Of a stretch of 64,000 nucleotides of DNA, positions 40,878 through 64,000 are shown piece by piece. The DNA is from Planctomycetota bacterium (GTDB lineage: Bacteria; Planctomycetota; Phycisphaerae; UBA1845), in contig JBBTCX010000101.1 in assembly GCA_038043045.1 (NCBI GenBank), forward strand, positions 373 through 64,372. The letters are read 5' to 3'. Position numbers and translations under genes: made by a program. The stretch's first letter is position 1, and each line of letters starts with the position of its first letter. The notes beneath the pieces were generated by a model. It was given only the letters and a program-made list of their open reading frames with translations, was not told the origin of the DNA and made no database searches.

Positions 40878-41052
40878 GCCTCGTCCAAGGGCGAGTGAAG
40901 AGGCAACCGGGTCGATCGATGAGTTCGAGATCGGCCTCTTCATAACGGGTTACGAAACGACCTCATGGATGGGGTCGGAGCATGGCGCGTTGGAGCTGCG
41001 CGTGAAGAACATAAGAGTCGGACAAATCGACCGATCTTGGCCGTTGAAGGTC

Positions 41053-41823
41053 ATGGTGCTAGCCATCGCCTTCGTTGCGCCGACGTATGGTCAAACCGCG
41101 CCGATTCTGAACAACCCTCTGGGCATTCCCGACGTCAGTCGAATTCTCCCCCCGGCCGGCGATCCTCAAACGGTCAGCACGTCGCTCCAAATCCTCGTGC
41201 TTTTGACTGTTCTCACGCTCATTCCATCCATTCTCGTCATGGTGACGTCTTTCCCGCGCATCATCATCGTGCTCGGTTTGCTTCGTCAGGCGATCGGCGT
41301 GCCCCAACTTCCCCCTGGTCAGATTCTGTTGGCGCTATCTCTATTTCTGACCGTTCTGGTTATGGCGCCGACTTGGCAAGCGATCCATGTCGAGGCTGTT
41401 CAACCCTACTTCGACAACCGCCTCGGACAGGAGCAGGCCATGACCATCGCTTCTCACCACTTGAAAAATTTCATGCACCGTCAAATAGATCAAGCGGGGA
41501 ATCAAGAAGACATTTATTTGTTTCTGGAATATTCCCAAAGGCAACCGATTCCGCAGGGGACGACGCTGAGCCTAGAAGACGTTCCGCTATCGGCCATGAT
41601 CCCCGCGTTTCTCTTGAGCGAACTCAAAACGGCTTTCATCATGGGTTTTCGGATTTACTTACCGTTCTTGGTCATCGATATGGTCATCGCCACGATCCTC
41701 GTGTCGATGGGCATGATGATGTTGCCGCCGGTATTGATTTCGTTGCCGTTCAAACTGTTGCTGTTTGTGCTGGCCGATGGCTGGCGACTCGTAGTGGAGA
41801 CCTTGATGCACAGCTTTGTCTAG
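41053..41823 (+). CDS. fliP: flagellar type III export pore protein FliP
   Basis: ORF 40969..41823, with the probable start at 41053 (MVLAIAFVAP signal). Motifs are FPRIIIVLGLLRQAIG and FLLSELKTAFIMGFRIYLPFLVIDMVIATILVSMGMMMLPP. Confidence 0.92.
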   Translation: MVLAIAFVAPTYGQTAPILNNPLGIPDVSRILPPAGDPQTVSTSLQILVLLTVLTLIPSILVMVTSFPRIIIVLGLLRQAIGVPQLPPGQILLALSLFLTVLVMAPTWQAIHVEAVQPYFDNRLGQEQAMTIASHHLKNFMHRQIDQAGNQEDIYLFLEYSQRQPIPQGTTLSLEDVPLSAMIPAFLLSELKTAFIMGFRIYLPFLVIDMVIATILVSMGMMMLPPVLISLPFKLLLFVLADGWRLVVETLMHSFV

Positions 41824-53947: not shown

Positions 53948-56320
53948 TCACGCTCGATTCGACCCAACGGCCAACGGATACCGGTTGAATCGCAGCTTGG
54001 CGGCCACGAGCAGTGACAATCCCAACACGATTAGCCCCCAGGTTGATGTCGTGGGAATTTGAACGCACGGGCCGGCGCAGTCGGAATCTTCGCAATCGGT
54101 GAGGCCGTCACAGTCGTTGTCGATTCCGTCGGAGCACCATACGGTGTATTCCTGAGTCGGCATAAGTCCGCAGTCTTCGACGCAGAGGCATCGCTCAAAG
54201 CTCGTGCAAAGTCCGTCGCCGCAACATTCGTCGGGGATGCCGTCGGAGTCTGCATCTTGAGAGGTGCCGTCGGCGATGTCGCAGGCGTCGGGGAGGTTGT
54301 TGGTGTTGCAATCGCCGGTTGTGCCGTTGATGAGTTCGCACGCGTCCTGGAACCCATTGGGTTGACAGTCGATTAACAGCTCTCCCTCTGGGACGGCGAT
54401 ACCGTACGGGAACGGTTGATCGGGGACCAACTCCTCGATGTTGGTTCCGTCGAGGTTGGCGCGATGAATCCCCGCGCCGGTCCAGTAGATTTTTCCGGAG
54501 GCGATGTCGACGGTGACGTCCCATACGGGTTTTGATAACGGACCGACGATGGTTTGAATATTGGTACCGTCGATATTCGAACGACGAATGGTCACCGGGT
54601 CGGTGGCCGCTCCTTCGGACCAGTAGAGTTTGCCAATACCCGGGTGGACGGCGATTCCTGTGGGTTCATGGACGTCTTGGGAAGGAACGATGGTTTCAAC
54701 GGAAGAGCCGTCTAAATTGGCGCGGGCGATTCGATCGATGTTTGAACCTTGGGGTATACTTTCCGTCCAATACATTTTTCCGGCGACTCGGTCGATGGCC
54801 AAATCGTTCACATGTCCCAGGCCTGATAAAATGGTTTGAAGTCCGGAGCCGTCCAGGTTTCCGCGCCGAATTTCTCCAGTCCGATGTGTCCAGTAGATTT
54901 TCCCTTCATCCGTATTCAACGCTAGTCCGAAGGATGAACCTAGGCCGGAGAAGATCTGTTGCTTGGCGGAGCCGTCGAAGTTGGATCGGAATATGCCATG
55001 GTCTGCAAGCCCGTTGCCGGTTTTGGATATCCAATAAACCAATCGGGTGCGAAGGTCCGCGACAATAGCCGACGGACCGAAAAAGTCGGTTGAATCGATG
55101 ATCGCGGGAGGCAAAGCATTCAGATGCAAACGCAAAACGTCTCTGAGTGCATTGTCGGTCCAGAAAATGAAGGCCGGCGGAGCATCGGCCAAAGTTGAGT
55201 CGCAGCAGATGGTCGAGGAACAAGTCGAGCCCGGTCCACGTGGCATGCCGCCTTGGAGTTGGCAGCATTGGGGATCGAGCATGGTGCAGTCGGTTTGAGA
55301 CAGACAACAGGCTTCGGGAAGATGGCAAATAGTCCCCGGCGAATTTGGTGTTCCGCCGGTCGAGCCGCAGCATATCGGGTCGACGTTGCTCGAGCAGATA
55401 CCCACCTCGGAGCAGCAAGATGTTGCGACGCCGCACTGGCTACCCGCGGGTTGGGGGACGCCGTTCATCGCCATGCAGCAGAGCGGGTCAATAAATTCGC
55501 AAGTGCCGCTTGCAAGGCAACATGCCACTTTCGCGGAACAGGAACCGGACGATCGCGGCGTTCCACCGACCGCTCGGCAGGCATCGGCTGTCACCATGGA
55601 GCAACTGTCGTTGGTGAGACAACAGGGGCCGACGCAAGGGTCAGAGTCTTCGCACGACTTTCCAGCGTGAAAGTCCCCGCCGAATGTTTGAGCGCAGCAC
55701 GCTTCAGAAATCGTGTCGCTGGTACAGATGTTGCCGACGCAGCAAGTCCCCGGCTGATTGTTCGTTGTAAGGATCGCGCCGATGTTGGCGACGATGGGGA
55801 TTAGAAGTCCGTTGCCGGGGCCATCATCCCTGAACCGGGTACTGTCGTCGACCACGGGTGGGCTGCTGATGTCAATTGCCGCGGTAAGGAATTGACCTTC
55901 AACGCAAGGCGAGGCTTCATAGGTTATCGTCATGAAATAATGTGGAATATTAGCGGGAAGAAAACAAGGCGGCTCTGAAACTCCGCGGGTGCGGCCGGCG
56001 AAGCAATTCGCTAGGCTTGTCGCGGCCAGTCCGCTGGCGCAAAGGGCCGGAATTCCGGTTGAGCTTGTGGGATCCACGGTGATAAGGGTTCCCGTCAATG
56101 TGCCGGTTCCGTTGTCCAGCAGGCAGGAAACGGCGATCTGACCCGCAACGCTTAACTGGTCCACGTTGCTGGAAACGAAGAACTCAATTTGTATCTCCTC
56201 GCCGCCAACGATGGTGTTCCCGCCGATAGGTACGGCCGTAATGGTCAAAGCGCCGCGAGCCGCCGTGCAAGCCAGGGATAGAACGGAAACTATAACAAGT
56301 CGAACCAGCGGATGCGTCAT
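53948..56320 (-). CDS. large exoprotein with five modules (details in evidence)
   Basis: 790 aa with a GAGGAG RBS and signal peptide LVRLVIVSVLSLACTAARG. The modules in order are: an unnamed N-terminal domain; five ~35-aa CC..C..CC..GG.P..GS.C repeats; a YWTD (LDL-receptor class B) beta-propeller with blades LVYWIS, KIYWTH, KMYWTE, KLYWSE and KIYWTG; a TSP3-like stretch (DSDGIPDEC); and an IPTL-CTERM-like tail, IPTTSTWGLIVLGLSLLVAAKLRFNR. Confidence 0.8.
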   Translation of the reverse strand: MTHPLVRLVIVSVLSLACTAARGALTITAVPIGGNTIVGGEEIQIEFFVSSNVDQLSVAGQIAVSCLLDNGTGTLTGTLITVDPTSSTGIPALCASGLAATSLANCFAGRTRGVSEPPCFLPANIPHYFMTITYEASPCVEGQFLTAAIDISSPPVVDDSTRFRDDGPGNGLLIPIVANIGAILTTNNQPGTCCVGNICTSDTISEACCAQTFGGDFHAGKSCEDSDPCVGPCCLTNDSCSMVTADACRAVGGTPRSSGSCSAKVACCLASGTCEFIDPLCCMAMNGVPQPAGSQCGVATSCCSEVGICSSNVDPICCGSTGGTPNSPGTICHLPEACCLSQTDCTMLDPQCCQLQGGMPRGPGSTCSSTICCDSTLADAPPAFIFWTDNALRDVLRLHLNALPPAIIDSTDFFGPSAIVADLRTRLVYWISKTGNGLADHGIFRSNFDGSAKQQIFSGLGSSFGLALNTDEGKIYWTHRTGEIRRGNLDGSGLQTILSGLGHVNDLAIDRVAGKMYWTESIPQGSNIDRIARANLDGSSVETIVPSQDVHEPTGIAVHPGIGKLYWSEGAATDPVTIRRSNIDGTNIQTIVGPLSKPVWDVTVDIASGKIYWTGAGIHRANLDGTNIEELVPDQPFPYGIAVPEGELLIDCQPNGFQDACELINGTTGDCNTNNLPDACDIADGTSQDADSDGIPDECCGDGLCTSFERCLCVEDCGLMPTQEYTVWCSDGIDNDCDGLTDCEDSDCAGPCVQIPTTSTWGLIVLGLSLLVAAKLRFNRYPLAVGSNRA

Positions 56321-56450
56321 TTTCTTTCTCCTCTAACGGCGCGCACCTGCCCAGGAATGGAGACCCGGCTAGGAATGGTGCTCATTGTACCCAGATTCGA
56401 CGCTCCGTTCAAGTGCGTAGCGGCTTACTTTTTCATAGGGGGTGTGGCCA

Positions 56451-56653
56451 CACTCTTCACCGGATGCGTCGGGCCTTGCATCGAATTGCACTTTCTCGAA
56501 TGAATTGCCGAAAAGCAAGCGCGCGAAAAACCCTGGAAAAACAGGCGTTTCTAGCACTCCATCGCATCGTGTTGCATCGCAAAAGAATCGGAGGAGGAGG
56601 GATTCGAACCCCCGGTACGGTTACCCGCACAACGGTTTTCAAAACCGTCCCCT
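56451..56653. repeat. left direct repeat of integrative element (attR-side), containing the 3' 65 nt of tRNA-Ser as a displaced gene fragment (56589..56653, minus strand)
   Basis: 56554..56653 is identical to 63768..63867 (100/100, hand alignment, offset 7214). 56461..56553 aligns to 63675..63767 with 13 mismatches and no indels. Confidence 0.85.
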
Positions 56654-56717
56654 GAATTCCGTAAGCGACGAAAAGACAACGAGTTATGAAAAGCCGGATT
56701 GCGCGCTGCCGCCTGGG

Positions 56718-56858
56718 ATGCCGTCGGAAGTAGAAATTGACCCCCAAAACGACCCCGATTTGGAGCTTGTGAAATCCAGATGGGCGGCGCTGCCGGAAGC
56801 CGTTCGGGCGCGGATCGTCGGGTTGGTCGAGGGAGCGACGGCGGGAAGCGGGCAATGA
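56718..56858 (+). CDS. 46-aa ORF at element left end, which may instead be the displaced 3' end of the integrase reading frame
   Basis: The ATG at 56718 is in frame with track ORF 56442..56858. The peptide MPSEVEIDPQNDPDLELVKSRWAALPEAVRARIVGLVEGATAGSGQ looks helical. The stop is immediately followed by a terminator hairpin. Confidence 0.3.
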   Translation: MPSEVEIDPQNDPDLELVKSRWAALPEAVRARIVGLVEGATAGSGQ

Positions 56859-56890
56859 AGGGTCGGGCGTCGAGTATGGGACCCTTTTTT
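56858..56890 (+). terminator. rho-independent terminator candidate
   Basis: 7-bp stem AAGGGTC / GACCCTT with a 15-nt loop. The stem runs straight into a T-tract of six (56885..56890), whose first two T's form the stem end. It starts at the last base of the stop codon at 56856..56858. Confidence 0.4.
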
Positions 56891-57237
56891 CCCATAAATT
56901 CGAACCCAAAACCGGCAAAAACGCGACGGTTCTCGTTAGGTTAACCCCCACCCGACGAAGGGGGTGTCACGATCGCGCGGATCGCAAGGCGAATTCGCAG
57001 CGGTTATCTGTGAGGATGATTTCCCGTTATGATCGCGCGCGCGGAGTAACAAGTTTCACGCGCCTACGCGCGAGGGTCGGGACCACTTGTCATAGAGCCG
57101 TCCGCCGGAGACAATCCCGGCGTGCAGCTTGTTCGCTCTTGCAGTTGATTCAAAAGAGCTTTTCCCGCCCGTTCGGCGTGCCATTCCATTGCGAACGGCT
57201 GTACAGCGCGGAACGCGGCGGGTTTGCGCGTGACGGT

Positions 57238-58509
57238 ATGACTACAACATCGTGGAACCAACATTCCTTTCGGCTACTCATTTCCATTGCGACATGCTCA
57301 CCCGTGCTTGGTGAACAAGCGAGACTCGAACCGATTGGAGTCTTGCCCGGTGGATACACTGCCAGTTTCGCCTTCGACATTTCGGCAAACGGTGAAGTCG
57401 TCGTTGGTTACTGTGACGCTACGGGCAATGTTGGTCAAGCATTTCGATGGACACTGAAGGATGGAATTGAAGCGTTGCCTTGGTTGACACCTGGAGTCGA
57501 TCAACGATCAGATGCCTACGCCGTTTCGGCGGATGGATCGGTCATCGTTGGTCGCGTTTCACAAACTGGTGGAACGAATTCCACCGCCGTCCGGTGGGAG
57601 AATGGTATCCCGATGTCTCTTGGTGCGCTCTGTACCGACAATCCGTACGGTTCTGGTAGTTACGCATGGGATGTTTCTTCCGACGGTCAGATCGTCGTTG
57701 GTTACAGCAATAGTTGCGGTTTCCGTTGGACGGCAAAGACCGGAATTCAACCCATTCCAACACCAGCGGGATTTCCGGGCACAAGTTGCGATGCACGTGC
57801 AATATCCGGTGACGGGACCACGATAGTTGGGTCTTGCGGCGCTTGTGGCGCATATCGATGGACTGAGGGTGCTGATCCACAATCGCAACATTTTCCAGGC
57901 GCGGTGTATACGGTCGTAACAGCCGTTTCCTATGATGGCCAAGTGCTCTTCGGAAATTACAACCTTCCGTTCGGAACGCGGTCATTTCGTTGGACGCCTT
58001 CCGAGGGGTTTCAAGACTTGGGTCAATTGCCCGATCAATCCGGGTCGACGAATGTGGAGGATTGTTCGTCCGATGGGTCGATGGTTGTTGGCACTTATTA
58101 CGCACTGGACGGCGACAATGCGTTTGTATGGAGTGAATCCACCGGACTTCAAAGTCTGCGAGATATTCTCACTGATGGTGGAGCGGAACTTTGTGATTGG
58201 AGGCTTTGGAATGCTTCGTCTGTTTCCGCGAATGGCACTCGAATCGTTGGATACGCTGATGACCCCGGCCCAATGCTGTACGACGGATATGTAGCCTTCT
58301 TGTCCGATGCACCGATGGAATGTTGCAACGGGTGTGACGATGGAAACTCCTGCACGGCGGATACATGCGTGAGCGGTTTTTGTGAACACACACCCGTGGT
58401 TCACGGGGACCTTGCTCCATGCGGCGGAGACGGCAAAGTCGACATCGATGATTTGATTTCGTTGCTCGAAGCATTCAAAGGTAATTCGCTTTGCGCCTGT
58501 ACGCCGTGA
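57238..58509 (+). CDS. HAF-family-like extracellular repeat protein with Cys-rich and dockerin/EF-hand-like C-terminus (element cargo)
   Basis: ORF 57010..58509, with an ATG at 57238. It contains ~40-aa repeats of the form A.A(V/I)S.DG..(V/I)VG.......AFRW....G...L. The C-terminus is CCNGCDDGNSCTADTCVSGFCEHT...GDGKVDIDDLISLLEAFKGNSLCACTP. Confidence 0.65.
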   Translation: MTTTSWNQHSFRLLISIATCSPVLGEQARLEPIGVLPGGYTASFAFDISANGEVVVGYCDATGNVGQAFRWTLKDGIEALPWLTPGVDQRSDAYAVSADGSVIVGRVSQTGGTNSTAVRWENGIPMSLGALCTDNPYGSGSYAWDVSSDGQIVVGYSNSCGFRWTAKTGIQPIPTPAGFPGTSCDARAISGDGTTIVGSCGACGAYRWTEGADPQSQHFPGAVYTVVTAVSYDGQVLFGNYNLPFGTRSFRWTPSEGFQDLGQLPDQSGSTNVEDCSSDGSMVVGTYYALDGDNAFVWSESTGLQSLRDILTDGGAELCDWRLWNASSVSANGTRIVGYADDPGPMLYDGYVAFLSDAPMECCNGCDDGNSCTADTCVSGFCEHTPVVHGDLAPCGGDGKVDIDDLISLLEAFKGNSLCACTP

Positions 58510-58514
58510 AAACG

Positions 58515-59408
58515 ATGCGCCTTTCGAATCAAAGATTCCCAACGATTTCGTTGTCAGAAATCCTCGACGTTGGGATGAAACAAGAGGTAAACCGAATTGA
58601 ACGAGTACACAGGCGATTTGCTCGCGTGGCGTTACGCAGGAACGACCTTACGCCAGATCAACGAAGTGTACTCGAAGTCGTAATGACGGGTGGAATCCCA
58701 GTAGATGGCCGGCTTTTCGAGAATAAGCACTACGAAAGAGTCCCTGAGCGGTTTTATTTGTTGAATCGTGCTGGAAAGACCGTCCGGCGATATGAGTCTC
58801 GCCGACTCGGTGTACCGTTGCATAAACCGCGCGCCTACGACGTAATCTTGAGAGAATTCTTCGGGGCGGCAAGAAAAATCGAACAACGCCCGTTTGGTGC
58901 TGCGCCGTCTTTCACGGTTGAAACTTTTTGGCCACAATCGATAGCGATGTATCTGGAGTTCCTGAGTACAGGTGTAAAGAATCAAGAAAAATACAATGCT
59001 TATGACATTGCGGACGTGGTAAAAAGATTGCAATGCGACGGCTTCGCGGCTGAACTCTTGAGGACACTTTGGCAAGAATGCCCGGAAGAAGCGAAGGAAA
59101 TGGGGTTGCCGAAGCCGCGTGGCGTGACTGCGGAAGAAAAACCGGCGTGGGCACGATTGGTCATTCATTCATCAAAGGGGGCTGACGACACCGCAGAACT
59201 TGATGGAAAGACATTCCGTCTCACCGGCGCAAACGATGCGCGGTTTCTCGAAACGCTTCAAGAACAAAAAGGCATGACGCTATCCGCAACTTCGCTTGGC
59301 GACGCAATAGATGAACGTCCCGATCGCGTCTACAAGAGGCTTAAGAAATCACTCCAGCGCATTATTGAGAAACCCGGAAAGGGTCGCAAGGGATATCGGA
59401 TGCTCTGA
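58515..59408 (+). CDS. hypothetical protein (~297 aa), no recognisable domain (element-borne)
   Basis: ORF 58491..59408, with an uncertain start (ATG at 58515 or 58575). The stretch looks AT-richer. The C-terminus is basic (KRLKKSLQRIIEKPGKGRKGYRML). Confidence 0.5.
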   Translation: MRLSNQRFPTISLSEILDVGMKQEVNRIERVHRRFARVALRRNDLTPDQRSVLEVVMTGGIPVDGRLFENKHYERVPERFYLLNRAGKTVRRYESRRLGVPLHKPRAYDVILREFFGAARKIEQRPFGAAPSFTVETFWPQSIAMYLEFLSTGVKNQEKYNAYDIADVVKRLQCDGFAAELLRTLWQECPEEAKEMGLPKPRGVTAEEKPAWARLVIHSSKGADDTAELDGKTFRLTGANDARFLETLQEQKGMTLSATSLGDAIDERPDRVYKRLKKSLQRIIEKPGKGRKGYRML

Positions 59409-59471
59409 CATTCGATGTACATACGCTGTACGTAGACTCATCTCGCATCGCGCCCCTATTGTTGGGGCATC

Positions 59472-59651
59472 ATGAAGAAGATAAAAACTCCGAGTTTGCC
59501 GGAACCCAAGGAAATTCGCCAAGAGATTGACTCGCTCAGGTCGCGCATAGGCGAGCTGAAAGCACTCCTGCGCGTTGCTGAAGTTCAGCAGATTTCGAAA
59601 CAACTTCGCTGCAAGTCTGAAGAGAGAATCCTTGCGGAGGGACGAACATGA
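59472..59651 (+). CDS. 59-aa coiled-coil ORF, translationally coupled to the Xis-like gene (not in the ORF track, below its size cut-off)
   Basis: Hand translation gives MKKIKTPSLPEPKEIRQEIDSLRSRIGELKALLRVAEVQQISKQLRCKSEERILAEGRT. Its TGA overlaps the next ATG (ATGA at 59648..59651). Confidence 0.4.
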   Translation: MKKIKTPSLPEPKEIRQEIDSLRSRIGELKALLRVAEVQQISKQLRCKSEERILAEGRT

Positions 59652-59962
59652 CCGCGATGCCAAAACTTGCGGGGAGTGAACCCGATCGGCGGGAAAACGT
59701 GGACGCGGGGAAGCGGTCGGGGATGGAACCGGCGAGCCGGGTGGAACCGCTGGCCGTGGATGCGAAGGCGTTGGCGGGGTTGATCGGCATATCCGTCCGC
59801 ACGATTCGAACGCACGACGCCGGTGGCAAGTTGCCGCGTGGCGTCCGAATCGGCGGAAGAAAAGTGTGGATCGTGGATGAAATCAAACGTTGGCTTGAGT
59901 CCGGCGCGCCGAATCGGGCGACGTGGGAAGCGATGAAGGGGAGCGCGAGTAAATTCAAATAG
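59648..59962 (+). CDS. excisionase/AlpA-type helix-turn-helix DNA-binding protein (HTH_17-like)
   Basis: LAVDAKALAGLIGISVRTIRTHDAGGKLPRGVRIGGRKVWIVDEIKRWLESG. Confidence 0.7.
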   Translation: MTAMPKLAGSEPDRRENVDAGKRSGMEPASRVEPLAVDAKALAGLIGISVRTIRTHDAGGKLPRGVRIGGRKVWIVDEIKRWLESGAPNRATWEAMKGSASKFK

Positions 59963-60020
59963 GCACAAAAAAGTACCCGCGATCGGCGGCAACCGAGAGC
60001 GCGGGCGAAAGCGATTAACC

Positions 60021-61556
60021 ATGAATCAGTATAGTCAAAAGCCGTCATCGTCACAAGTCGACGACCGACTCCCACCACATGATCCTGACGCGGAAAGGGC
60101 CGTCACCGTTTGTCTTGCCGACGTGGCACCTGAGCGGTTGACTTGGCTGTGGCCGAATAGAATACCGCTGGGCAAACTCACATTGATCGCCGGTGATCCG
60201 GGCCTTGGAAAAAGCTTCGTCACGTTGGATATGGCGGCGCGTCTTTCACGGGGCGAGCCGTGGCCGGACAGCCCGAATGAACCCGGAACCTGTGGATCAA
60301 CGATCATTCTGAGCGCCGAAGATGATCCGGCGGATACGATCGTTCCGCGTCTTATGGCGCATGGGGCCGACCTTTCACGAATTCACGCTCTTTCCACCGT
60401 AAAACAAAAGGATGGGAAGCTTTCGCCATTCAACTTGTCGCGCGATGTGCCTGTTTTGGAAAAGGCGATTCAGCAAGTCGGCGAATGCAAGTTGATCGTC
60501 ATCGACCCGGTGAGCGCCTATCTCGGTGGAGTCGATTCGCACAAAAACGCGGAGACACGCGGACTACTTGGACCATTGGCGGAATTGGCGGGGCGCCACC
60601 GCGTGGCCGTTGTCATGGTTACGCACGTGACCAAAGCCTACGGCGGAAAAGCGCTCTATCGTGCCACCGGTTCGTTGGCATTCATGGCGGCGGCGCGGGC
60701 CGGTTGGACGGTCATGGCGGACAATGGTGACCCGAAAAGGCGACTCATGCTGCCGGTCAAGGTGAATTTGGCTGAGTGGCCGACGGGTCTGGCATACAGA
60801 CTCGTTCCGCAATTCTTGGACGAAATCGGTGCGAACGTGGCGACTGTTGTTTGGGAGCCGGACCCGGTTGTTGTTCAAGCCGACGAAATGTTGCGGCGGG
60901 AAACGAACGCCAACGAAGGGCAGAAGCGCTCAACGCACACCGCGCGTGATGAATGTGCGGACTGGCTGGCCGCAAAGCTTGCTATTGGACCGGTTCCGGC
61001 GACGGTGATGGAAACCGAAGCGGATCAACGGGGATACTCTACTTCCACACTACAGCGGGCAAAGCGAAGGCTTGGTGTCGAAAGCAAAAAGATCGGCATG
61101 AAAGGAAAAGGCAGTTGGCATTGGCGTTTACCAAGCCACGAATCCGAAGGTGTTCACCATGCGGATGAAGATACTCACCCAAAAGATGTGAGTACCTTCG
61201 GGGCGGGTGAATACCTTCGCGTTATTGACCCCGAAAACGCGGGTTCCGAACCCCTGATAAGTGACCATCCCACCGAAGATACTCACCCACCGGGGGTGAA
61301 CACCTTCGGCGATGACCGTGGCAATTCTGAACCGCGCGATCGCTTGGGCAAAACCAAAACCGTTAATGGAAACGGACAACTTCCCCTTCCACTTCATCCG
61401 CGTGGGGAGGAATTCACCGGCTTGGTTCCGGTCGACATGACGCCGGAAGGGTATCTACTCGTACTCAAAGGCCGCGCAAAGCGAACCGACGATCCGCAAA
61501 CCGTTCGAAAGCTGCGCGACAGTGCCGCGAAGATTCGAAAGCTGATTCAGAAATAG
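60021..61556 (+). CDS. AAA_25 / RepA-like RecA-fold ATPase (replication-initiation type protein of integrative elements)
   Basis: LWPNRIPLGKLTLIAGDPGLGKSFVTLDMAARLSRGEPWP is the Walker A. LIVIDPVSAYLGG is the Walker B. The C-terminal third carries a repeated EDTHP..V.TFG peptide. Confidence 0.7.
   Translation: MNQYSQKPSSSQVDDRLPPHDPDAERAVTVCLADVAPERLTWLWPNRIPLGKLTLIAGDPGLGKSFVTLDMAARLSRGEPWPDSPNEPGTCGSTIILSAEDDPADTIVPRLMAHGADLSRIHALSTVKQKDGKLSPFNLSRDVPVLEKAIQQVGECKLIVIDPVSAYLGGVDSHKNAETRGLLGPLAELAGRHRVAVVMVTHVTKAYGGKALYRATGSLAFMAAARAGWTVMADNGDPKRRLMLPVKVNLAEWPTGLAYRLVPQFLDEIGANVATVVWEPDPVVVQADEMLRRETNANEGQKRSTHTARDECADWLAAKLAIGPVPATVMETEADQRGYSTSTLQRAKRRLGVESKKIGMKGKGSWHWRLPSHESEGVHHADEDTHPKDVSTFGAGEYLRVIDPENAGSEPLISDHPTEDTHPPGVNTFGDDRGNSEPRDRLGKTKTVNGNGQLPLPLHPRGEEFTGLVPVDMTPEGYLLVLKGRAKRTDDPQTVRKLRDSAAKIRKLIQK
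61144..61309. repeat. iteron-like cluster: four copies of GGTGA(A/G)(C/T)ACCTTCG(G)
   Basis: There are three direct copies: 61188..61201 (gtgagtaccttcgg), 61206..61219 (ggtgaataccttcg) and 61295..61309 (ggtgaacaccttcgg). One inverted copy lies at 61144..61158; ccgaaggtgttcacc is the exact reverse complement of the 61295 copy. In addition, a 35-bp direct repeat unit gaagatactcaccca...accttcgg occurs at 61167 and 61275. Confidence 0.6.
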
Positions 61557-61600
61557 TAAAAAATGCGCCCTTGACGGTGCGCCTAACATGAGGTATATTT

Positions 61601-61909
61601 ATGGATGGAATGGACACCAAGGCGAGAAGGGCATGGAATGCTATACGGGAATGCGTCGCACGCAAACGATACATCGTGCTGCCGCACTTCATCGAACGCA
61701 TGGACCAGCGCGGATATTTTTGGCCGGACGTGCTGGCGATCATCGATGAACCGACCGACGTGCGATCCGATGGGCTGGACCGACTCGACCGTCCGAAGTG
61801 GATCGTTTCCGGTAAGGCCGCCGCGCCGCTGGACGAAACGGTGGAAATCGTTTGTGTGCTCGACAAAGATGACCGTGGCCGCGTGACCGTGTTCATCACG
61901 ATTTATTGA
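61601..61909 (+). CDS. DUF4258-family toxin-like protein
   Basis: 102 aa. YIVLPHFIERMDQRGYFWPDVLAIID...RVTVFITIY fits the H..eRm..Rgi ... viTvY pattern I recall for DUF4258. Confidence 0.6.
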   Translation: MDGMDTKARRAWNAIRECVARKRYIVLPHFIERMDQRGYFWPDVLAIIDEPTDVRSDGLDRLDRPKWIVSGKAAAPLDETVEIVCVLDKDDRGRVTVFITIY

Positions 61910-61918
61910 GGAGTCATC

Positions 61919-62344
61919 ATGGCGACGAAGACCCGCAAGACCTGGCGACGTGGACGACCGAGAGCGGCGCAGCTCGATAACCCCGATCTTCCCTACACGA
62001 TGAAACTGCCCGATGGTCGCGTGCTGTATACCGAAGTTCCGGGCCGATGGGTGACGGCGGACCGCGATGGACAGGCGGCGTTGCTGCCCGATGGGGTGGC
62101 GTTTCTCGATAAGCTGCGAGCGTTGGCGATCAAGCTGGACCGTCCACCGACACCCGGCTACATCACGGCGCTTCGTGAAGGATTGGGACTGACCCAAGCC
62201 GAATTCGGTGAGCGGGTCGACGTGGATAAGATGACCATATCCCGATGGGAGCGTGGCACGCTTCGACCGAGTGAAGAATCCTTGGCGGCGGTGGAAAGCG
62301 TGCGACGTGAAGCCGTCCGAAGTGGCGTAACCATTCAGGCATAA
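61919..62344 (+). CDS. XRE-family HTH protein (putative cognate antitoxin)
   Basis: ITALREGLGLTQAEFGERVDVDKMTISRWERGTLRPSEESL. It starts 10 nt after the DUF4258 gene. Confidence 0.65.
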   Translation: MATKTRKTWRRGRPRAAQLDNPDLPYTMKLPDGRVLYTEVPGRWVTADRDGQAALLPDGVAFLDKLRALAIKLDRPPTPGYITALREGLGLTQAEFGERVDVDKMTISRWERGTLRPSEESLAAVESVRREAVRSGVTIQA

Positions 62345-62365: not shown

Positions 62366-64000
62366 ATGGCGCGGATATATCGAAAGAGTTGGACAAAGCG
62401 GCTACCCGATGGATCGAAGGAAAAGACTCGTTCGCGGGCGTGGTACGTCGATTACCGGGACGTGGCGAGCGATACCGTGAAGACCGTGAAAGGCTACACC
62501 GACCGCAAAGCCACTGAACAACGCGCGGCGGAGTTGGAGCGAACATCCGAGCGGACAGCGGTGGGGCTGATTGATCGATTCGCCGAACATCGCAAGCGAC
62601 CGCTGACCGAACACGTTCACGACTTTCACCGTGCGCTACTCGCCAAGGAATGCACGGAAAAACAAGCCGACTTGTTGATGTCGCGGTGTCTGAGGGTGTT
62701 GGACGAATGCCGGTTTCGGTTTTGGCCGGAGATTTCGGCGTCAAGTGTTCAAGCGTCAATCGCGGAATTGAAAATCCGGCGTAAGGGAAAGACTTCCAAT
62801 GATCCGACGTTGCCGGTGAGCGTCCAAACGAAAAACTTCTACTTGGCGGCATTGAAACAATTCTGTCGGTGGATAGTCCGTGACGGTCGAGCGCCGGAGA
62901 ATCCCCTTGCCCACTTGCAAGGTGGAAACGTTCGCACCGATCGTCGCCATGATCGCCGTGCTTTGGAACCAGACGAATTGCGTCGGCTGTTGTCGGTTAC
63001 TGAAACCGGAACTACTCGCTACAGCTTGACCGGGCCGGATCGGGTGGCGCTTTATCGGCTTGCGGTCGAAACCGGACTCCGAGCATCCGAGCTGCGCTCG
63101 TTGACTTGGAACGACCTGAACTTTGCGGGTGCCGAACCGACGGTCACCGTCCGGGCCGCATATGCCAAGAATCGCCGTGAGGACTCTCTACCCTTAAAAC
63201 TCTCGACGGCGCAATCCCTTCGCGTCTGGCGCGATAAACAGGTCGGCGTGGACCGAATGGACCCGGTGTTCCCCACGATGCCCGCAAAGGGGCATGTTGC
63301 CGAAATGGTGAGGGCTGACTTGGATGATTCGGGAATCGTCTATCGTGATGACGCGGGCCGCGTGGTCGACTTCCACGCTCTTCGACACACCTTTATCAAC
63401 AACCTTGTCCGTGGCGGCGTTCAGCCGAAGGTGGCGCAAACGCTTGCCCGACATTCGACCATCACCCTGACGATGGACCGATACTCGCATACCAACCGTG
63501 GACAGCTCACCGACGCGCTATCGGCACTACCGGATTTGTCACTCGAACCCTGTGAAAAAGAAGTCGCGCTAGCCACCGGGACTGACAATCGCATCATCGA
63601 ATCCCGCGCTCAAAAAAGTATGCCGGAAAACCTGCCGTCCGCGCTGCCGTTTCACATGCCGGAACAGGGTTCACCGAATGCGTCGAGTATTGCATCGACT
63701 TGCACTTTGTCGAATGAATTACCGAAAAGCAAACGTGCGGAAAATCCTGGAAAAATAGGCGTTTCTCGCACTCCATCGCATCGTGTTGCATCGCAAAAGA
63801 ATCGGAGGAGGAGGGATTCGAACCCCCGGTACGGTTACCCGCACAACGGTTTTCAAAACCGTCCCCTTCAGCCGCTCGGGCACTCCTCCGTGAGTCAAAC
63901 CTGTCCGGTCGTAATGATCCACGAACCCCCGACCCGCGCGCGTCTGTTACCGCGACGGGGTCGGCGTGTTGCCATGTCGTGTCACCAAGGTCGCTCTTTT
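62366..64000 (+). CDS. tyrosine recombinase/integrase; reading frame open to the window edge (no stop in window)
   Basis: This is hand-translated and absent from the ORF track because it has no stop. It starts MARIYRKSWTKRLPDGSKEKTRSRAWYVDYRD. Box I is LAVETGLRASELRSLTWNDL. Box II is FHALRHTFINNLVRGG...LARHSTITLTMDRYSH, with the catalytic Tyr near 63485. The frame then continues through the repeat, antisense through the tRNA, and to position 64000. Confidence 0.8.
   Translation, partial: MARIYRKSWTKRLPDGSKEKTRSRAWYVDYRDVASDTVKTVKGYTDRKATEQRAAELERTSERTAVGLIDRFAEHRKRPLTEHVHDFHRALLAKECTEKQADLLMSRCLRVLDECRFRFWPEISASSVQASIAELKIRRKGKTSNDPTLPVSVQTKNFYLAALKQFCRWIVRDGRAPENPLAHLQGGNVRTDRRHDRRALEPDELRRLLSVTETGTTRYSLTGPDRVALYRLAVETGLRASELRSLTWNDLNFAGAEPTVTVRAAYAKNRREDSLPLKLSTAQSLRVWRDKQVGVDRMDPVFPTMPAKGHVAEMVRADLDDSGIVYRDDAGRVVDFHALRHTFINNLVRGGVQPKVAQTLARHSTITLTMDRYSHTNRGQLTDALSALPDLSLEPCEKEVALATGTDNRIIESRAQKSMPENLPSALPFHMPEQGSPNASSIASTCTLSNELPKSKRAENPGKIGVSRTPSHRVASQKNRRRRDSNPRYGYPHNGFQNRPLQPLGHSSVSQTCPVVMIHEPPTRARLLPRRGRRVAMSCHQGRSF
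63665..63867. repeat. right direct repeat of integrative element (attL-side), overlapping the integrase 3' region and nt 23-87 of tRNA-Ser
   Basis: See the left repeat. Identity ends at 63867 (R1 continues g, R2 continues t). Confidence 0.85.
63803..63889 (-). tRNA. tRNA-Ser (anticodon UGA), class II with long variable arm
   Basis: The reverse complement is GGAGGAGTGCCCGAGCGGCTGAAGGGGACGGTTTTGAAAACCGTTGTGCGGGTAACCGTACCGGGGGTTCGAATCCCTCCTCCTCCG. The 7-bp acceptor stem is GGAGGAG/CTCCTCC. The anticodon stem is ACGGT/ACCGT with loop TTTGAAA (TGA). It has a GTTCGAATC T-loop. CCA is not encoded. Confidence 0.9.

What the first reader, a model, noticed from the sequence alone, without database searches (positions are those of the whole stretch)
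62366..64000. Integrase reading frame crosses the attachment site; integration swaps its C-terminal tail
The integrase frame starts at 62366 and its catalytic Tyr lies in DRYSH near 63485. The frame has no stop codon for the remaining >500 nt. It reads through the 100-bp core repeat, antisense through the tRNA gene, and out of the window.

The left repeat copy is read by track ORF 56442..56858 in the equivalent frame. The offset of 7214 is congruent to 2 mod 3, which matches the frame difference between the two ORFs. Circularisation would therefore join 63867 to 56654 in frame and yield a 1707-nt (568-codon) int gene. That gene would end at the TGA at 56856..56858, where a hairpin plus T-tract terminator begins (56858..56890).

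The excised and integrated forms would therefore encode integrases with different C-terminal extensions. The element-encoded tail would be LNSVSDEK...DLELVKSRWAALPEAVRARIVGLVEGATAGSGQ, versus host-encoded read-through. This is conceptually similar to integration-dependent immunity in some mycobacteriophages, where attP lies inside a regulatory gene and integration truncates its product.

There is a caveat. GC-rich DNA carries long accidental open frames, so the tail could be non-functional.
Basis: partly seen in the sequence, partly recalled or inferred. Interest (0 to 1): 0.65.

Follow-up and report, generated by a model that had tools for sequence, protein, structure and literature searches.

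The report
Integrase gene spanning its attachment site
A 7.2-kb mobile element sits in a serine tRNA gene, and its integrase gene runs through the element's own attachment site, so insertion swaps a conserved two-helix end of the enzyme for host-encoded sequence; this Mx8-like design turns out to be shared by a large integrase family across the Planctomycetota.

Summary

**In the window**
- The integrase ORF starts at ATG 62366, with the catalytic Tyr at 63482-84.
- It stays open through the 100-bp exact att core (63768-63867) and antisense through tRNA-Ser(tga).
- Joining 63867 to 56654 gives a stop-free 568-codon gene ending at TGA 56856-58.

**In relatives**
- Homologous Planctomycetota integrases carry a median of 132 residues after the Tyr.
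- In 61 of 72 genome loci the ORF overlaps a tRNA gene.
- In 19 of 19 integrated elements, covering at least 10 tRNA isoacceptors, the attL-side ORF is in frame with int and has no stops.
- That ORF ends in a conserved motif, about DPDLAxVxxxWxxLPEAVRAGIVAMV. It shows a protein-like codon-position pattern and is predicted as two helices after a disordered linker.
- Attachment-site-form contigs, including a 43-kb phage contig with a terminase, carry the fused gene intact.

**Consequences**
- About 1,855 small "hypothetical proteins" matched by the motif profile look like orphaned integrase 3' ends; this was shown directly only for the 19 loci.
- The closest precedent is Myxococcus phage Mx8 (Int to IntX). 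There is no detectable sequence homology to it.
- The function of the tail is inferred only: probably modulation of activity or directionality.

The parts
62366..64000 (+). Integrase gene, integrated (attR) form. It runs off the window. The full product is 564 aa, with its stop about 19 codons past 64000.
   Evidence: Catalytic residues R239, K268, H337, R340, H363 and Y373 are invariant in the family alignment.
62960..63496 (+). Tyrosine-recombinase catalytic domain (aa 199-377). The catalytic Tyr373 codon is at 63482-63484.
   Evidence: Pfam PF00589, E = 2e-23. The fold of relative P0079 matches lambda Int, Brujita Int and Tn1549 Int.
63497..63767 (+). Variable linker-coding region between the catalytic domain and the att core. 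Predicted disordered in the relative P0079.
   Evidence: P0079 residues 380-520 have pLDDT below 50. This region aligns poorly across the family apart from an ATGT motif near aa 404-406.
63670..63867 (.). attR copy of the direct repeat. The exact 100-bp core is 63768-63867. It covers tRNA nucleotides 24-89, including the whole anticodon stem-loop (anticodon at 63853-63855).
63802..63890 (-). Intact tRNA-Ser(tga) target gene. Its 3' 66 nt are supplied by the element. The int ORF reads it antisense as RRRRDSNPRYGYPHNGFQNRPL.
56456..56653 (.). attL copy of the repeat. The exact core is 56554-56653. The displaced tRNA-Ser 3' fragment is 56588-56653. The segment 56456-56553 is an 87%-identical int-tail-like remnant lying outside the element.
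56654..56858 (+). Element-encoded C-terminal tail of Int (67 codons plus TGA). It is fused to int only in the excised form.
56754..56852 (+). Conserved two-helix module (DPDLELVKSRWAALPEAVRARIVGLVEGATAGSG), the part of Int that is lost on integration.
   Evidence: AF2 predicts helices at tail residues 34-45 and 48-66 with pLDDT about 95. Invariant or near-invariant W, L, P, E, R and I positions. Codon-position differences are 0.47/0.35/0.58.
56858..56892 (+). Hairpin plus T-run immediately after the tail stop codon. Candidate terminator of the excised-form int gene.
   Evidence: dG -18.5 kcal/mol, z = -1.9. Not called by the stricter scan.
57010..62344 (+). Body of the 7.2-kb element. It carries two ORFs of unknown function (57010-58509, 58491-59408), an excisionase-like HTH (59648-59962), an AAA_25 primase/helicase-like protein (60021-61556), a DUF4258 protein (61601-61909) and an Xre-type HTH (61919-62344). 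No virion genes.
63680..63690 (+). 11-mer GCGTCGAGTAT in the P arm. It recurs at 56867-56877 in the P' arm of the reconstructed attP. Candidate arm-type site (weak).
   Evidence: 5 repeated 10-mers against 0.7 expected in shuffles.

Best explanation
**What it is.** This is a small integrative element (56654 to about 63801) inserted in tRNA-Ser(tga). Its lambda-like tyrosine integrase gene is built so that the attP core lies inside the coding sequence. The core sits in DNA that encodes a long disordered linker, about 130 codons after the catalytic Tyr and 67 codons before the true stop.

**The two forms.**
- Excised circle: int encodes a 568-aa protein made of the catalytic body, the linker (part of it the tRNA fragment read antisense) and a conserved C-terminal two-helix module.
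- Integrated: strand exchange, probably in the anticodon loop near 63850-63858, moves the last 67 codons 7.2 kb away to attL. The prophage-form gene then encodes the same body followed by 63 unconserved residues read from the tRNA 5' half and host DNA.

**Shown here.** The architecture, the frame continuity, the protein-level conservation of the tail, and its generality across a Planctomycetota-wide integrase family used by small elements and by tailed phages.

**Inferred.** Losing the module changes Int activity, most likely lowering it or re-biasing it. Full-length Int made from the circle would then drive integration, and the prophage form would be attenuated, stabilising the integrated state. 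Excision regenerates the full gene. This follows the Mx8 Int/IntX precedent, acting on top of an ordinary excisionase (59648-59962).
For: **Window**
- The ORF, tRNA, repeat and junction arithmetic are verified.

**Family**
- 2,337 homologues, mostly 450-600 aa.
- Their tails contain tRNA T-arm peptides in all three frames: DSNP, GIRT and GFEP.
- In 61 of 72 GTDB loci the int ORF overlaps a tRNA gene, 51 antisense and 10 sense.

**Frame test**
- 19 of 19 integrated elements have a detectable attL/attR repeat, an attL tail ORF in frame with int, and zero stops. They target at least 10 tRNA isoacceptors.
- The distance from core end to stop is 59-93 codons.
- Chance is 1/3 per independent case.

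**Tail conservation**
- The profile finds 514 representatives and 1,855 proteins.
- Those listed are almost all small ORFs with the motif at their C-terminus, and many begin with tRNA-derived peptides.
- Pairwise differences at codon positions 1/2/3 are 0.47/0.35/0.58.

**Intact fused genes**
- P0079 sits on three contigs that carry only a tRNA fragment.
- L091 is a 43-kb viral contig with a terminase and no tRNA gene in the 21-kb locus examined. L109 is a second such contig.

**Structure**
- The relative P0079 is modelled as an N-terminal beta domain, a core-binding domain and a catalytic domain (pLDDT above 90), a disordered stretch at 380-520, and two C-terminal helices with pLDDT about 90.

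**Precedent**
- Mx8 attP lies within int, and integration creates a new 3' end with altered recombination properties (PMC6070905; PMC4383910).
Against: - No experiment or expression data bear on either isoform. The functional consequence is by analogy only.
- The module has no Pfam, PHROG or PDB match, so its partner is unknown.
- One attP-like junction (L065) has int and tail out of frame by one base.
- The P0079 contigs also carry a second, oppositely oriented orphan tail, so they may be chromosomal or tandem junctions rather than free circles.
- The 13 differences between the two copies in the imperfect part of the window repeat are mostly non-synonymous. The linker itself is therefore not under strong constraint.
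Confidence: 0.8

Rival explanations
1. The conserved tail is an independent small gene at the left end of the element. The integrase's long open tail and the shared frame would then be incidental.
For: - Gene callers annotate hundreds of 39-80-aa stand-alone ORFs that carry the motif.
- The window tail has an in-frame ATG at 56718.
- A few small proteins carry two motif copies.
Against: - 19 of 19 elements are in frame with int, with no stop between core and motif.
- There is no conserved Met or start upstream of the motif.
- Many 'small proteins' start inside or before the tRNA fragment.
- Intact fusions exist in attP-form contigs.
- No plus-strand promoter-like site was found upstream in the window.
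Confidence: 0.05
2. The open frame beyond the catalytic domain is accidental untranslated read-through. Int would really end functionally around aa 410, and the downstream sequence would matter only as DNA: attP arms and arm-type binding sites.
For: - In Mx8, sequences on both sides of the core inside int are needed for attP function (my recollection of Magrini 1999).
- Repeated 10-11-mers flank the window core.
- The linker is poorly conserved.
Against: - GC is only about 56%.
- The ORF is kept open in essentially every family member.
- The motif has lowest variability at codon position 2 and highest at position 3.
- AF2 gives a confident two-helix fold.
- DNA sites would not require frame continuity in 19 of 19 cases.
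Confidence: 0.04
3. The architecture is real, but the tail module serves something other than regulating recombination. Examples are recruiting a host factor or the element's replication or partition machinery while the element is extrachromosomal. Its loss on integration would then be neutral for Int activity.
For: - The module is separated from the enzyme by about 150 disordered residues.
- It has no known homologue.
- The element encodes a replicative helicase-like protein.
Against: - The module is found with the same integrase family in both tailed phages and small elements that have different cargo. This argues for a role tied to Int itself.
- The Mx8 precedent shows changed recombination properties.
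Confidence: 0.15

Closest known systems
Myxococcus phage Mx8 integrase (Int/IntP converted to IntX on integration)
   Same: - The attP core lies inside the int ORF, downstream of the catalytic Tyr.
- The target is a tRNA gene read antisense. Mx8 Int contains STGLEPV about 110 aa from its end.
- Integration replaces the C-terminal residues, giving a prophage-form enzyme (PMC6070905; PMC4383910).
- An excisionase gene lies upstream.
   Different: - There is no detectable sequence similarity (BLASTP E = 0.55).
- The Mx8 tail lacks the DPDL...W..LPE motif.
- Here the swapped part is a conserved two-helix module shared by more than 1,800 database proteins.
- The design spans a whole phylum, at least 10 tRNA targets, all three frames and both tRNA orientations.
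Mycobacteriophage integration-dependent immunity (BPs, Brujita, Charlie)
   Same: - attP sits inside a coding sequence, so viral and prophage genomes express proteins with different C-termini. Integration acts as a covalent switch (PMC3694055).
- The Brujita Int structure (5vfz) is the top fold match of the relative's model.
   Different: - There, attP is in the repressor gene and not in int.
- There, the removed segment is an ssrA-like degradation tag. Here attP is in int, and the removed segment is a folded two-helix module.
- None of 264 tail proteins ends in [LVA]AA.
- The Xre-type regulator at 61919-62344 is intact and separate.
Archaeal SSV-type 'suicidal' integrases (SSV1, pTN3, pT26-2)
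   Same: The att site lies within the integrase gene, giving a compact int-att module (PMC8371274).
   Different: - There, integration splits the gene into N- and C-terminal pseudogene halves and separates the catalytic domain from the N-terminal part.
- Here the whole enzyme body stays intact and only a C-terminal appendage is exchanged.
- The Pfam match here is Phage_integrase and not Phage_integr_3.
Lambda-type heterobivalent tyrosine integrases
   Same: - The predicted architecture is an N-terminal beta domain, a core-binding domain and a catalytic domain, with the full set of catalytic residues.
- An excisionase-like gene is present.
- The element uses a tRNA anticodon-stem-loop core.
   Different: Lambda Int ends about 14 residues after the Tyr and its attP lies outside int. 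Here about 195 further codons follow, and they contain attP.

Membership tests
Tyrosine recombinase / phage integrase (PF00589) | Catalytic domain with the R...K...HxxR...H/W...Y residues | tested here: met
   Pfam E = 2e-23, above the gathering score. R239, K268, H337, R340, H363 and Y373 are invariant in 35 family members. The fold matches lambda Int, Brujita Int, Tn1549 Int, Xer and Cre.
Mx8-type int/attP overlap (C-terminal swap on integration) | The attP core lies inside the int ORF, 3' of the catalytic Tyr codon | tested here: met
   The core at 63768-63867 lies within the ORF that starts at 62366, and the Tyr is at 63482. The same holds in 19 reconstructed elements and in attP-form contigs L001, L091 and L109.
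Mx8-type int/attP overlap (C-terminal swap on integration) | Integration into a tRNA gene replaces the C-terminal residues with host-encoded ones | tested here: met
   The integrated form is 564 aa (P0001) and the circular form is 568 aa. They diverge after L501.
Mx8-type int/attP overlap (C-terminal swap on integration) | The prophage-form integrase has altered or lower recombination activity | not testable with these tools
   This needs in vivo or in vitro recombination assays. Only the review statement for Mx8 was available. The primary papers are not held.
Mx8-type int/attP overlap (C-terminal swap on integration) | Sequence homology to Mx8 Int | tested here: not met
   BLASTP best E = 0.55. 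Mx8 is not among the listed phage tblastn hits, and all hits are below 28% identity. This is analogy and not family membership.
Integration-dependent immunity (mycobacteriophage BPs/Brujita type) | attP lies within the repressor gene, and integration removes a C-terminal ssrA-like tag | tested here: not met
   attP is in int. The Xre-like gene at 61919-62344 is upstream and uninterrupted. None of 264 tails ends in [LVA]AA.
SSV-type suicidal integrase | Integration splits int so that the catalytic part is separated from the N-terminal part | tested here: not met
   The N-terminal, core-binding and catalytic domains stay contiguous at attR.
tRNA-targeting integrative element (Islander-type island) | Intact tDNA at one end, displaced tDNA fragment at the other, integrase inside | tested here: met
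   tRNA-Ser at 63802-63890, its 66-nt 3' fragment at 56588-56653, and int adjacent to the tDNA.

The most novel reading that the evidence does not exclude
The conserved two-helix C-terminal module is a built-in sensor of integration state. By being physically uncoupled from the enzyme at integration, it would act as a protein-level directionality or attenuation domain for a whole phylum-wide integrase family. It might work by docking on the catalytic domain or on a conserved host factor. The orphaned attL tail might additionally be expressed in lysogens as a trans-acting small regulator. Either way this would be a new class of recombination control, distinct from RDFs and from degradation tags.
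Probability: 0.3. Interest if true: 0.8.

Novelty: new variant of a known kind. Interest (0 to 1): 0.62.

Why it matters
- **Scope.** A curiosity known essentially from one myxophage, where the integrase rewrites the end of its own gene when it integrates, turns out to be the standard design of a large, unannotated integrase family. That family occurs in the phages and small integrative elements of the Planctomycetota.
- **A new protein module.** The work defines a roughly 35-residue, two-helix motif with no Pfam entry. Its only consistent property is that integration removes it from the enzyme. This gives a testable handle on how tyrosine integrases can be tuned without, or in addition to, an excisionase.
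- **Annotation.** It suggests that the roughly 1,855 small "hypothetical proteins" matched by the motif profile are displaced integrase 3' ends. It also gives a sequence signature (tRNA fragment followed by the motif) that marks the far boundary of these elements precisely.
- **Tools.** The tolerance of the disordered linker to any tRNA fragment, in any frame, suggests how such integrases can switch targets. That may be useful for engineering integration tools for Planctomycetota, which are genetically hard to work with.

Tried and rejected
- **Chance open frame in GC-rich DNA.** Rejected. GC is about 56%, and the ORF is open in essentially all relatives.
- **Independent small gene.** Rejected as the main explanation on the basis of frame, start-codon and fusion evidence.
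- **ssrA-like degradation tag.** Rejected. No [LVA]AA ends were found, and the module is predicted to be folded.
- **Homology to Mx8 Int.** None was found.
- **Extending the sequence beyond 64000.**
  - A genome scan with P0001 alone found nothing.
  - The look-up of encoding contigs had no record of P0001.
  - The integrated-form stop is therefore known only from the length of P0001.
- **Deep alignment of the tail in a full-length context.** MAFFT misplaced the small proteins. The tail and the full-length protein were therefore modelled separately.
- **Fold search of the tail against the PDB.** No meaningful hit.
- **Pfam and PHROGs on the tail.** Nothing.
- **Primary Mx8 papers** (PMC178153, PMC93896, PMC93897). 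Not held. Details of IntX activity rest on a review and on my memory.
- **Literature on Planctomycetes integrases with internal attP.** None was found.
- **Strict terminator scan.** It did not call the hairpin after the tail stop.
Full report
**1. The observation**

- The integrase ORF begins at ATG 62366 and has no stop in the 545 codons up to the window end.
- Pfam places a Phage_integrase catalytic domain at aa 199-377 (E = 2e-23).
- The DRYSH Tyr is codon 373, at 63482-63484.
- ARAGORN finds tRNA-Ser(tga) on the minus strand at 63802-63890. The ORF therefore reads the tRNA antisense, as ...RRRRDSNPRYGYPHNGFQNRPLQPLGHSS....
- A direct repeat links 56456-56653 to 63670-63867: 198 nt at 93% identity, offset 7214. 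The right-hand 100 nt (56554-56653 = 63768-63867) are identical. The core occurs exactly twice in the window.
- The identical block covers tRNA nucleotides 24-89, which is the whole anticodon stem-loop through to the 3' end. This is the usual layout for crossover in the anticodon loop. That last point is an inference from the established sublocation classes summarised in PMC4383910.
- Joining 63867 to 56654 gives a 1707-nt, 568-codon ORF with no internal stop, ending at TGA 56856-58.
- The database copy of this contig's protein (P0001, 564 aa) shows that the integrated form stops about 19 codons beyond the window.
- The two forms share residues 1-501. They then differ over 63 host-encoded residues in one and 67 element-encoded residues in the other.
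- GC here is 0.56-0.60. From that composition I calculate that about 195 stop-free codons after the Tyr has a chance of roughly 5e-4.
- A hairpin with a T-run follows the tail stop (dG -18.5, z = -1.9). The stricter scanner did not call it.

**2. The long tail is a family property**

- A search with the 568-aa form found 2,337 homologues. The listed ones are mostly 450-600 aa, and those with a source name are labelled Planctomycetes/Planctomycetota.
- Their tails after the Tyr are typically longer than 100 aa.
- These tails contain peptides that are the tRNA T-arm read in each of the three frames: DSNP, GIRT and GFEP.
- A profile-guided scan of one genome per GTDB species gave 489 confirmed loci, of which the best 80 were kept. 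All identifiable ones are Planctomycetota: Phycisphaerae, Sedimentisphaerales, Pirellulales, Planctomycetaceae and Kuenenia.
- Among 72 loci with a recognisable Tyr motif, the int ORF overlaps a tRNA gene in 61 (51 antisense, 10 sense) and runs off the contig in 4.
- The median tail after the Tyr is 132 aa and the minimum is 63.

**3. The post-core peptide is conserved, as protein**

- P0079 (553 aa) aligned over 98% of the 568-aa query. That span includes ...EIDPGLSEVMDRWERLSEPIRAAIVALV..., against ...EIDPQNDPDLELVKSRWAALPEAVRARIVGLV... in the window.
- A profile of the two tails was searched exhaustively against 1.84 billion representatives and found 514 hits. A broader tail profile found 1,855 proteins in the 5.8-billion set.
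- Nearly all listed hits are 39-140-aa 'hypothetical proteins' with the motif at their C-terminus. The consensus is about DPDLAxVxxxWxxLPEAVRAGIVAMVKAA.
- Many of these small proteins start with tRNA-derived peptides.
- In 23 genomic copies of the conserved block, pairwise differences at codon positions 1/2/3 are 0.47/0.35/0.58. This is a coding signature and not a DNA-site signature.
- AlphaFold2 on a 63-sequence tail alignment gives a disordered first half and two helices with pLDDT about 95.
- There is no Pfam, PHROG or PDB match.

**4. The decisive test: frame continuity**

- The tail motif was found on the int strand, 4.6-10.7 kb upstream of int, in about 20 genome loci.
- 19 integrated elements (18 loci plus the window) have a detectable attL/attR repeat.
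  - Their targets cover ten isoacceptors: Ser-gct, Ser-tga, Cys-gca, Lys-ctt, Arg-cct, Arg-tct, Phe, Leu-caa, Thr and Asp.
  - Two further elements have targets that could not be identified.
- In all 19, the tail ORF is in frame with int across the repeat.
  - Two apparent exceptions were BLAST edge gaps.
- The reconstructed circular genes all have lengths divisible by three and zero internal stops. The distance from core end to stop is 59-93 codons.
- There is no conserved Met upstream of the motif.
- With a chance of 1/3 per case, this gives about 1e-9. Counting only the ten known targets as independent still gives about 2e-5.

**5. Intact fused genes exist**

- P0079 lies on three contigs that contain only a tRNA-Ser(cga) 3' fragment inside the ORF and no full tRNA.
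- In IMG/VR, L091 and L109 carry int and the tail motif in a single ORF.
  - L091 is a 43-kb contig that encodes a large terminase.
  - L109 is a 49-kb contig.
  - Both have a tRNA-like peptide in the linker and no tRNA gene in the ~21-kb loci examined.
- The family therefore serves tailed phages as well as small elements.

**6. Anatomy of the protein and the element**

- The model of P0079 has these parts:
  - an N-terminal beta domain (residues 1-42);
  - a helical core-binding domain;
  - a catalytic domain with pLDDT above 90;
  - a disordered stretch at residues 380-520 that contains the tRNA-encoded segment;
  - two terminal helices with pLDDT about 90.
- Fold matches are Brujita Int, lambda Int (full length) and Tn1549 Int.
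- Placing the att core in DNA that encodes a disordered linker explains why any tRNA fragment, in any frame or orientation, is tolerated.
- The window element encodes an excisionase-like HTH, an AAA_25 primase/helicase-like protein, a DUF4258 protein plus an Xre HTH, and two proteins of unknown function. It has no virion genes.
- The left neighbour, at 53948-56320 on the minus strand, is an LDL-receptor-repeat protein and is presumably a host gene.

**7. How it most likely works**

*Shown.* Integration exchanges a conserved two-helix module for unconserved host-encoded residues, and excision restores it.

*Inferred.*
- The module modulates Int. Full-length enzyme from the circle would favour integration.
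- The prophage form would be attenuated or re-biased, stabilising the integrated state.
- This would act alongside the excisionase.

The basis is the Mx8 precedent.
- In Mx8, attP lies within int, and integration creates a new 3' end that modifies recombination properties (PMC6070905; also noted in PMC4383910).
- From memory of Magrini et al. 1999, IntX has lower specific activity and limits excision. I could not read those papers.

I put the architecture at about 0.95 and the regulatory consequence at about 0.5.

**8. Comparison and novelty**

- **Mx8.** It works like Mx8 Int/IntX but is not homologous to it (BLASTP E = 0.55, no shared motif).
- **Integration-dependent immunity.** This differs because attP is in int and not in the repressor gene, and the removed piece is not an ssrA-like tag.
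- **Archaeal suicidal integrases.** This differs because the enzyme body is not split.
- **Literature.** I found no description of this family or motif.

I rate it a new variant of a known kind. It is of moderate-to-high interest because of its phylum-wide scope, the new conserved module, and the re-interpretation of many orphan ORFs.

**9. Exceptions and loose ends**

- L065 has an attP-like junction with int and tail out of frame by one base, and a second tail motif 2.3 kb further on. This is probably a decayed tandem array.
- The imperfect 98-nt extension of the window repeat means that the DNA just outside attL (56456-56553) is an int-tail-like remnant. It matches int profile positions 413-487. 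This suggests earlier occupancy of the site. Extended repeats are also seen in L010, L024 and L066.

Noticed in passing
window 56456-56553 (compare 63670-63767): The direct repeat extends 98 nt beyond the exact core at about 87% identity. The host-side flank of attL therefore carries 33 codons that look like the integrase linker. This is probably a remnant of an earlier related element, or captured flank. Similarly long, imperfect repeats occur in L010, L024 and L066.
   Followed up: partly
window 63680-63690 and 56867-56877; also 63640-63649 and 56702-56711: An 11-mer (GCGTCGAGTAT) and a 10-mer (CGCGCTGCCG) recur in direct orientation on both sides of the core in the reconstructed attP. These are candidate arm-type integrase sites. 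The 11-mer copy at 56867 lies in the loop of the putative terminator hairpin, and it is mutated in the attL-flank remnant.
   Followed up: partly
window 56898-56907: A second ATTCGAACCC (tRNA T-arm-like) decamer lies just after the terminator hairpin. It may be a trace of another old tRNA fragment.
   Followed up: no
database proteins P0121-P0385: About 1,855 small 'hypothetical proteins' (39-140 aa, no Pfam) end in the DPDL...W..LPE...I..MV motif. They look like displaced integrase 3' ends called as genes at attL sites.
   Followed up: partly
L007, L013, L019, L023, L039, L048, L070, L075, L076, L078: In 10 of 61 loci the integrase ORF reads the tRNA gene in the sense orientation. In L076 the repeat covers the 5' part of tRNA-Cys, so some family members use the 5' half of the target.
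   Followed up: partly
L035 4252-4351 and L055 7194-7289: Two family members are integrated in a selenocysteine tRNA (tRNA-SeC, tca) gene.
   Followed up: no
L065 5979-7611 and 9898-10083: An attP-like junction has no full tRNA. The integrase (GFEP frame) and the tail (DSNP frame) are out of frame by one base, and a second tail motif lies 2.3 kb downstream. This is probably a decayed tandem array.
   Followed up: partly
L002 316-693 (-) and L003 209-586 (-): Upstream of the P0079 integrase, on the opposite strand, there is a 126-aa ORF (= P0242). It carries a second copy of the tail motif and starts with a sense-read T-arm peptide (SGVRVPPP). This is another orphan attL-type junction next to an intact fused gene.
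   Followed up: partly
protein P0125 (1784 aa) and P0122, P0133, P0172, P0179, P0214, P0270: A very large protein gives 14 partial matches to the first half of the motif. Several small ORFs carry two tandem copies of the W..LPE helix. Their meaning is unknown.
   Followed up: no
window 61601-62344: A DUF4258 ORF is immediately followed by an Xre-type HTH ORF just upstream of int. The arrangement resembles a toxin-antitoxin or regulator pair.
   Followed up: no
window 57359-57411 / 57653-57705 and 61156-61201 / 61264-61309: Two short imperfect direct repeats (72-74% identity) lie inside element ORFs. They probably reflect internal protein repeats.
   Followed up: no
family alignment A3, around aa 404-406 of the window integrase: A nearly invariant A-T-G-T motif lies about 30 residues after the catalytic Tyr. 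It marks the real end of the conserved enzyme body before the disordered linker.
   Followed up: no
window 40959-41053: A second serine tRNA gene, tRNA-Ser(gga), lies on the plus strand 15 kb to the left. No att-like repeat of it was looked for.
   Followed up: no
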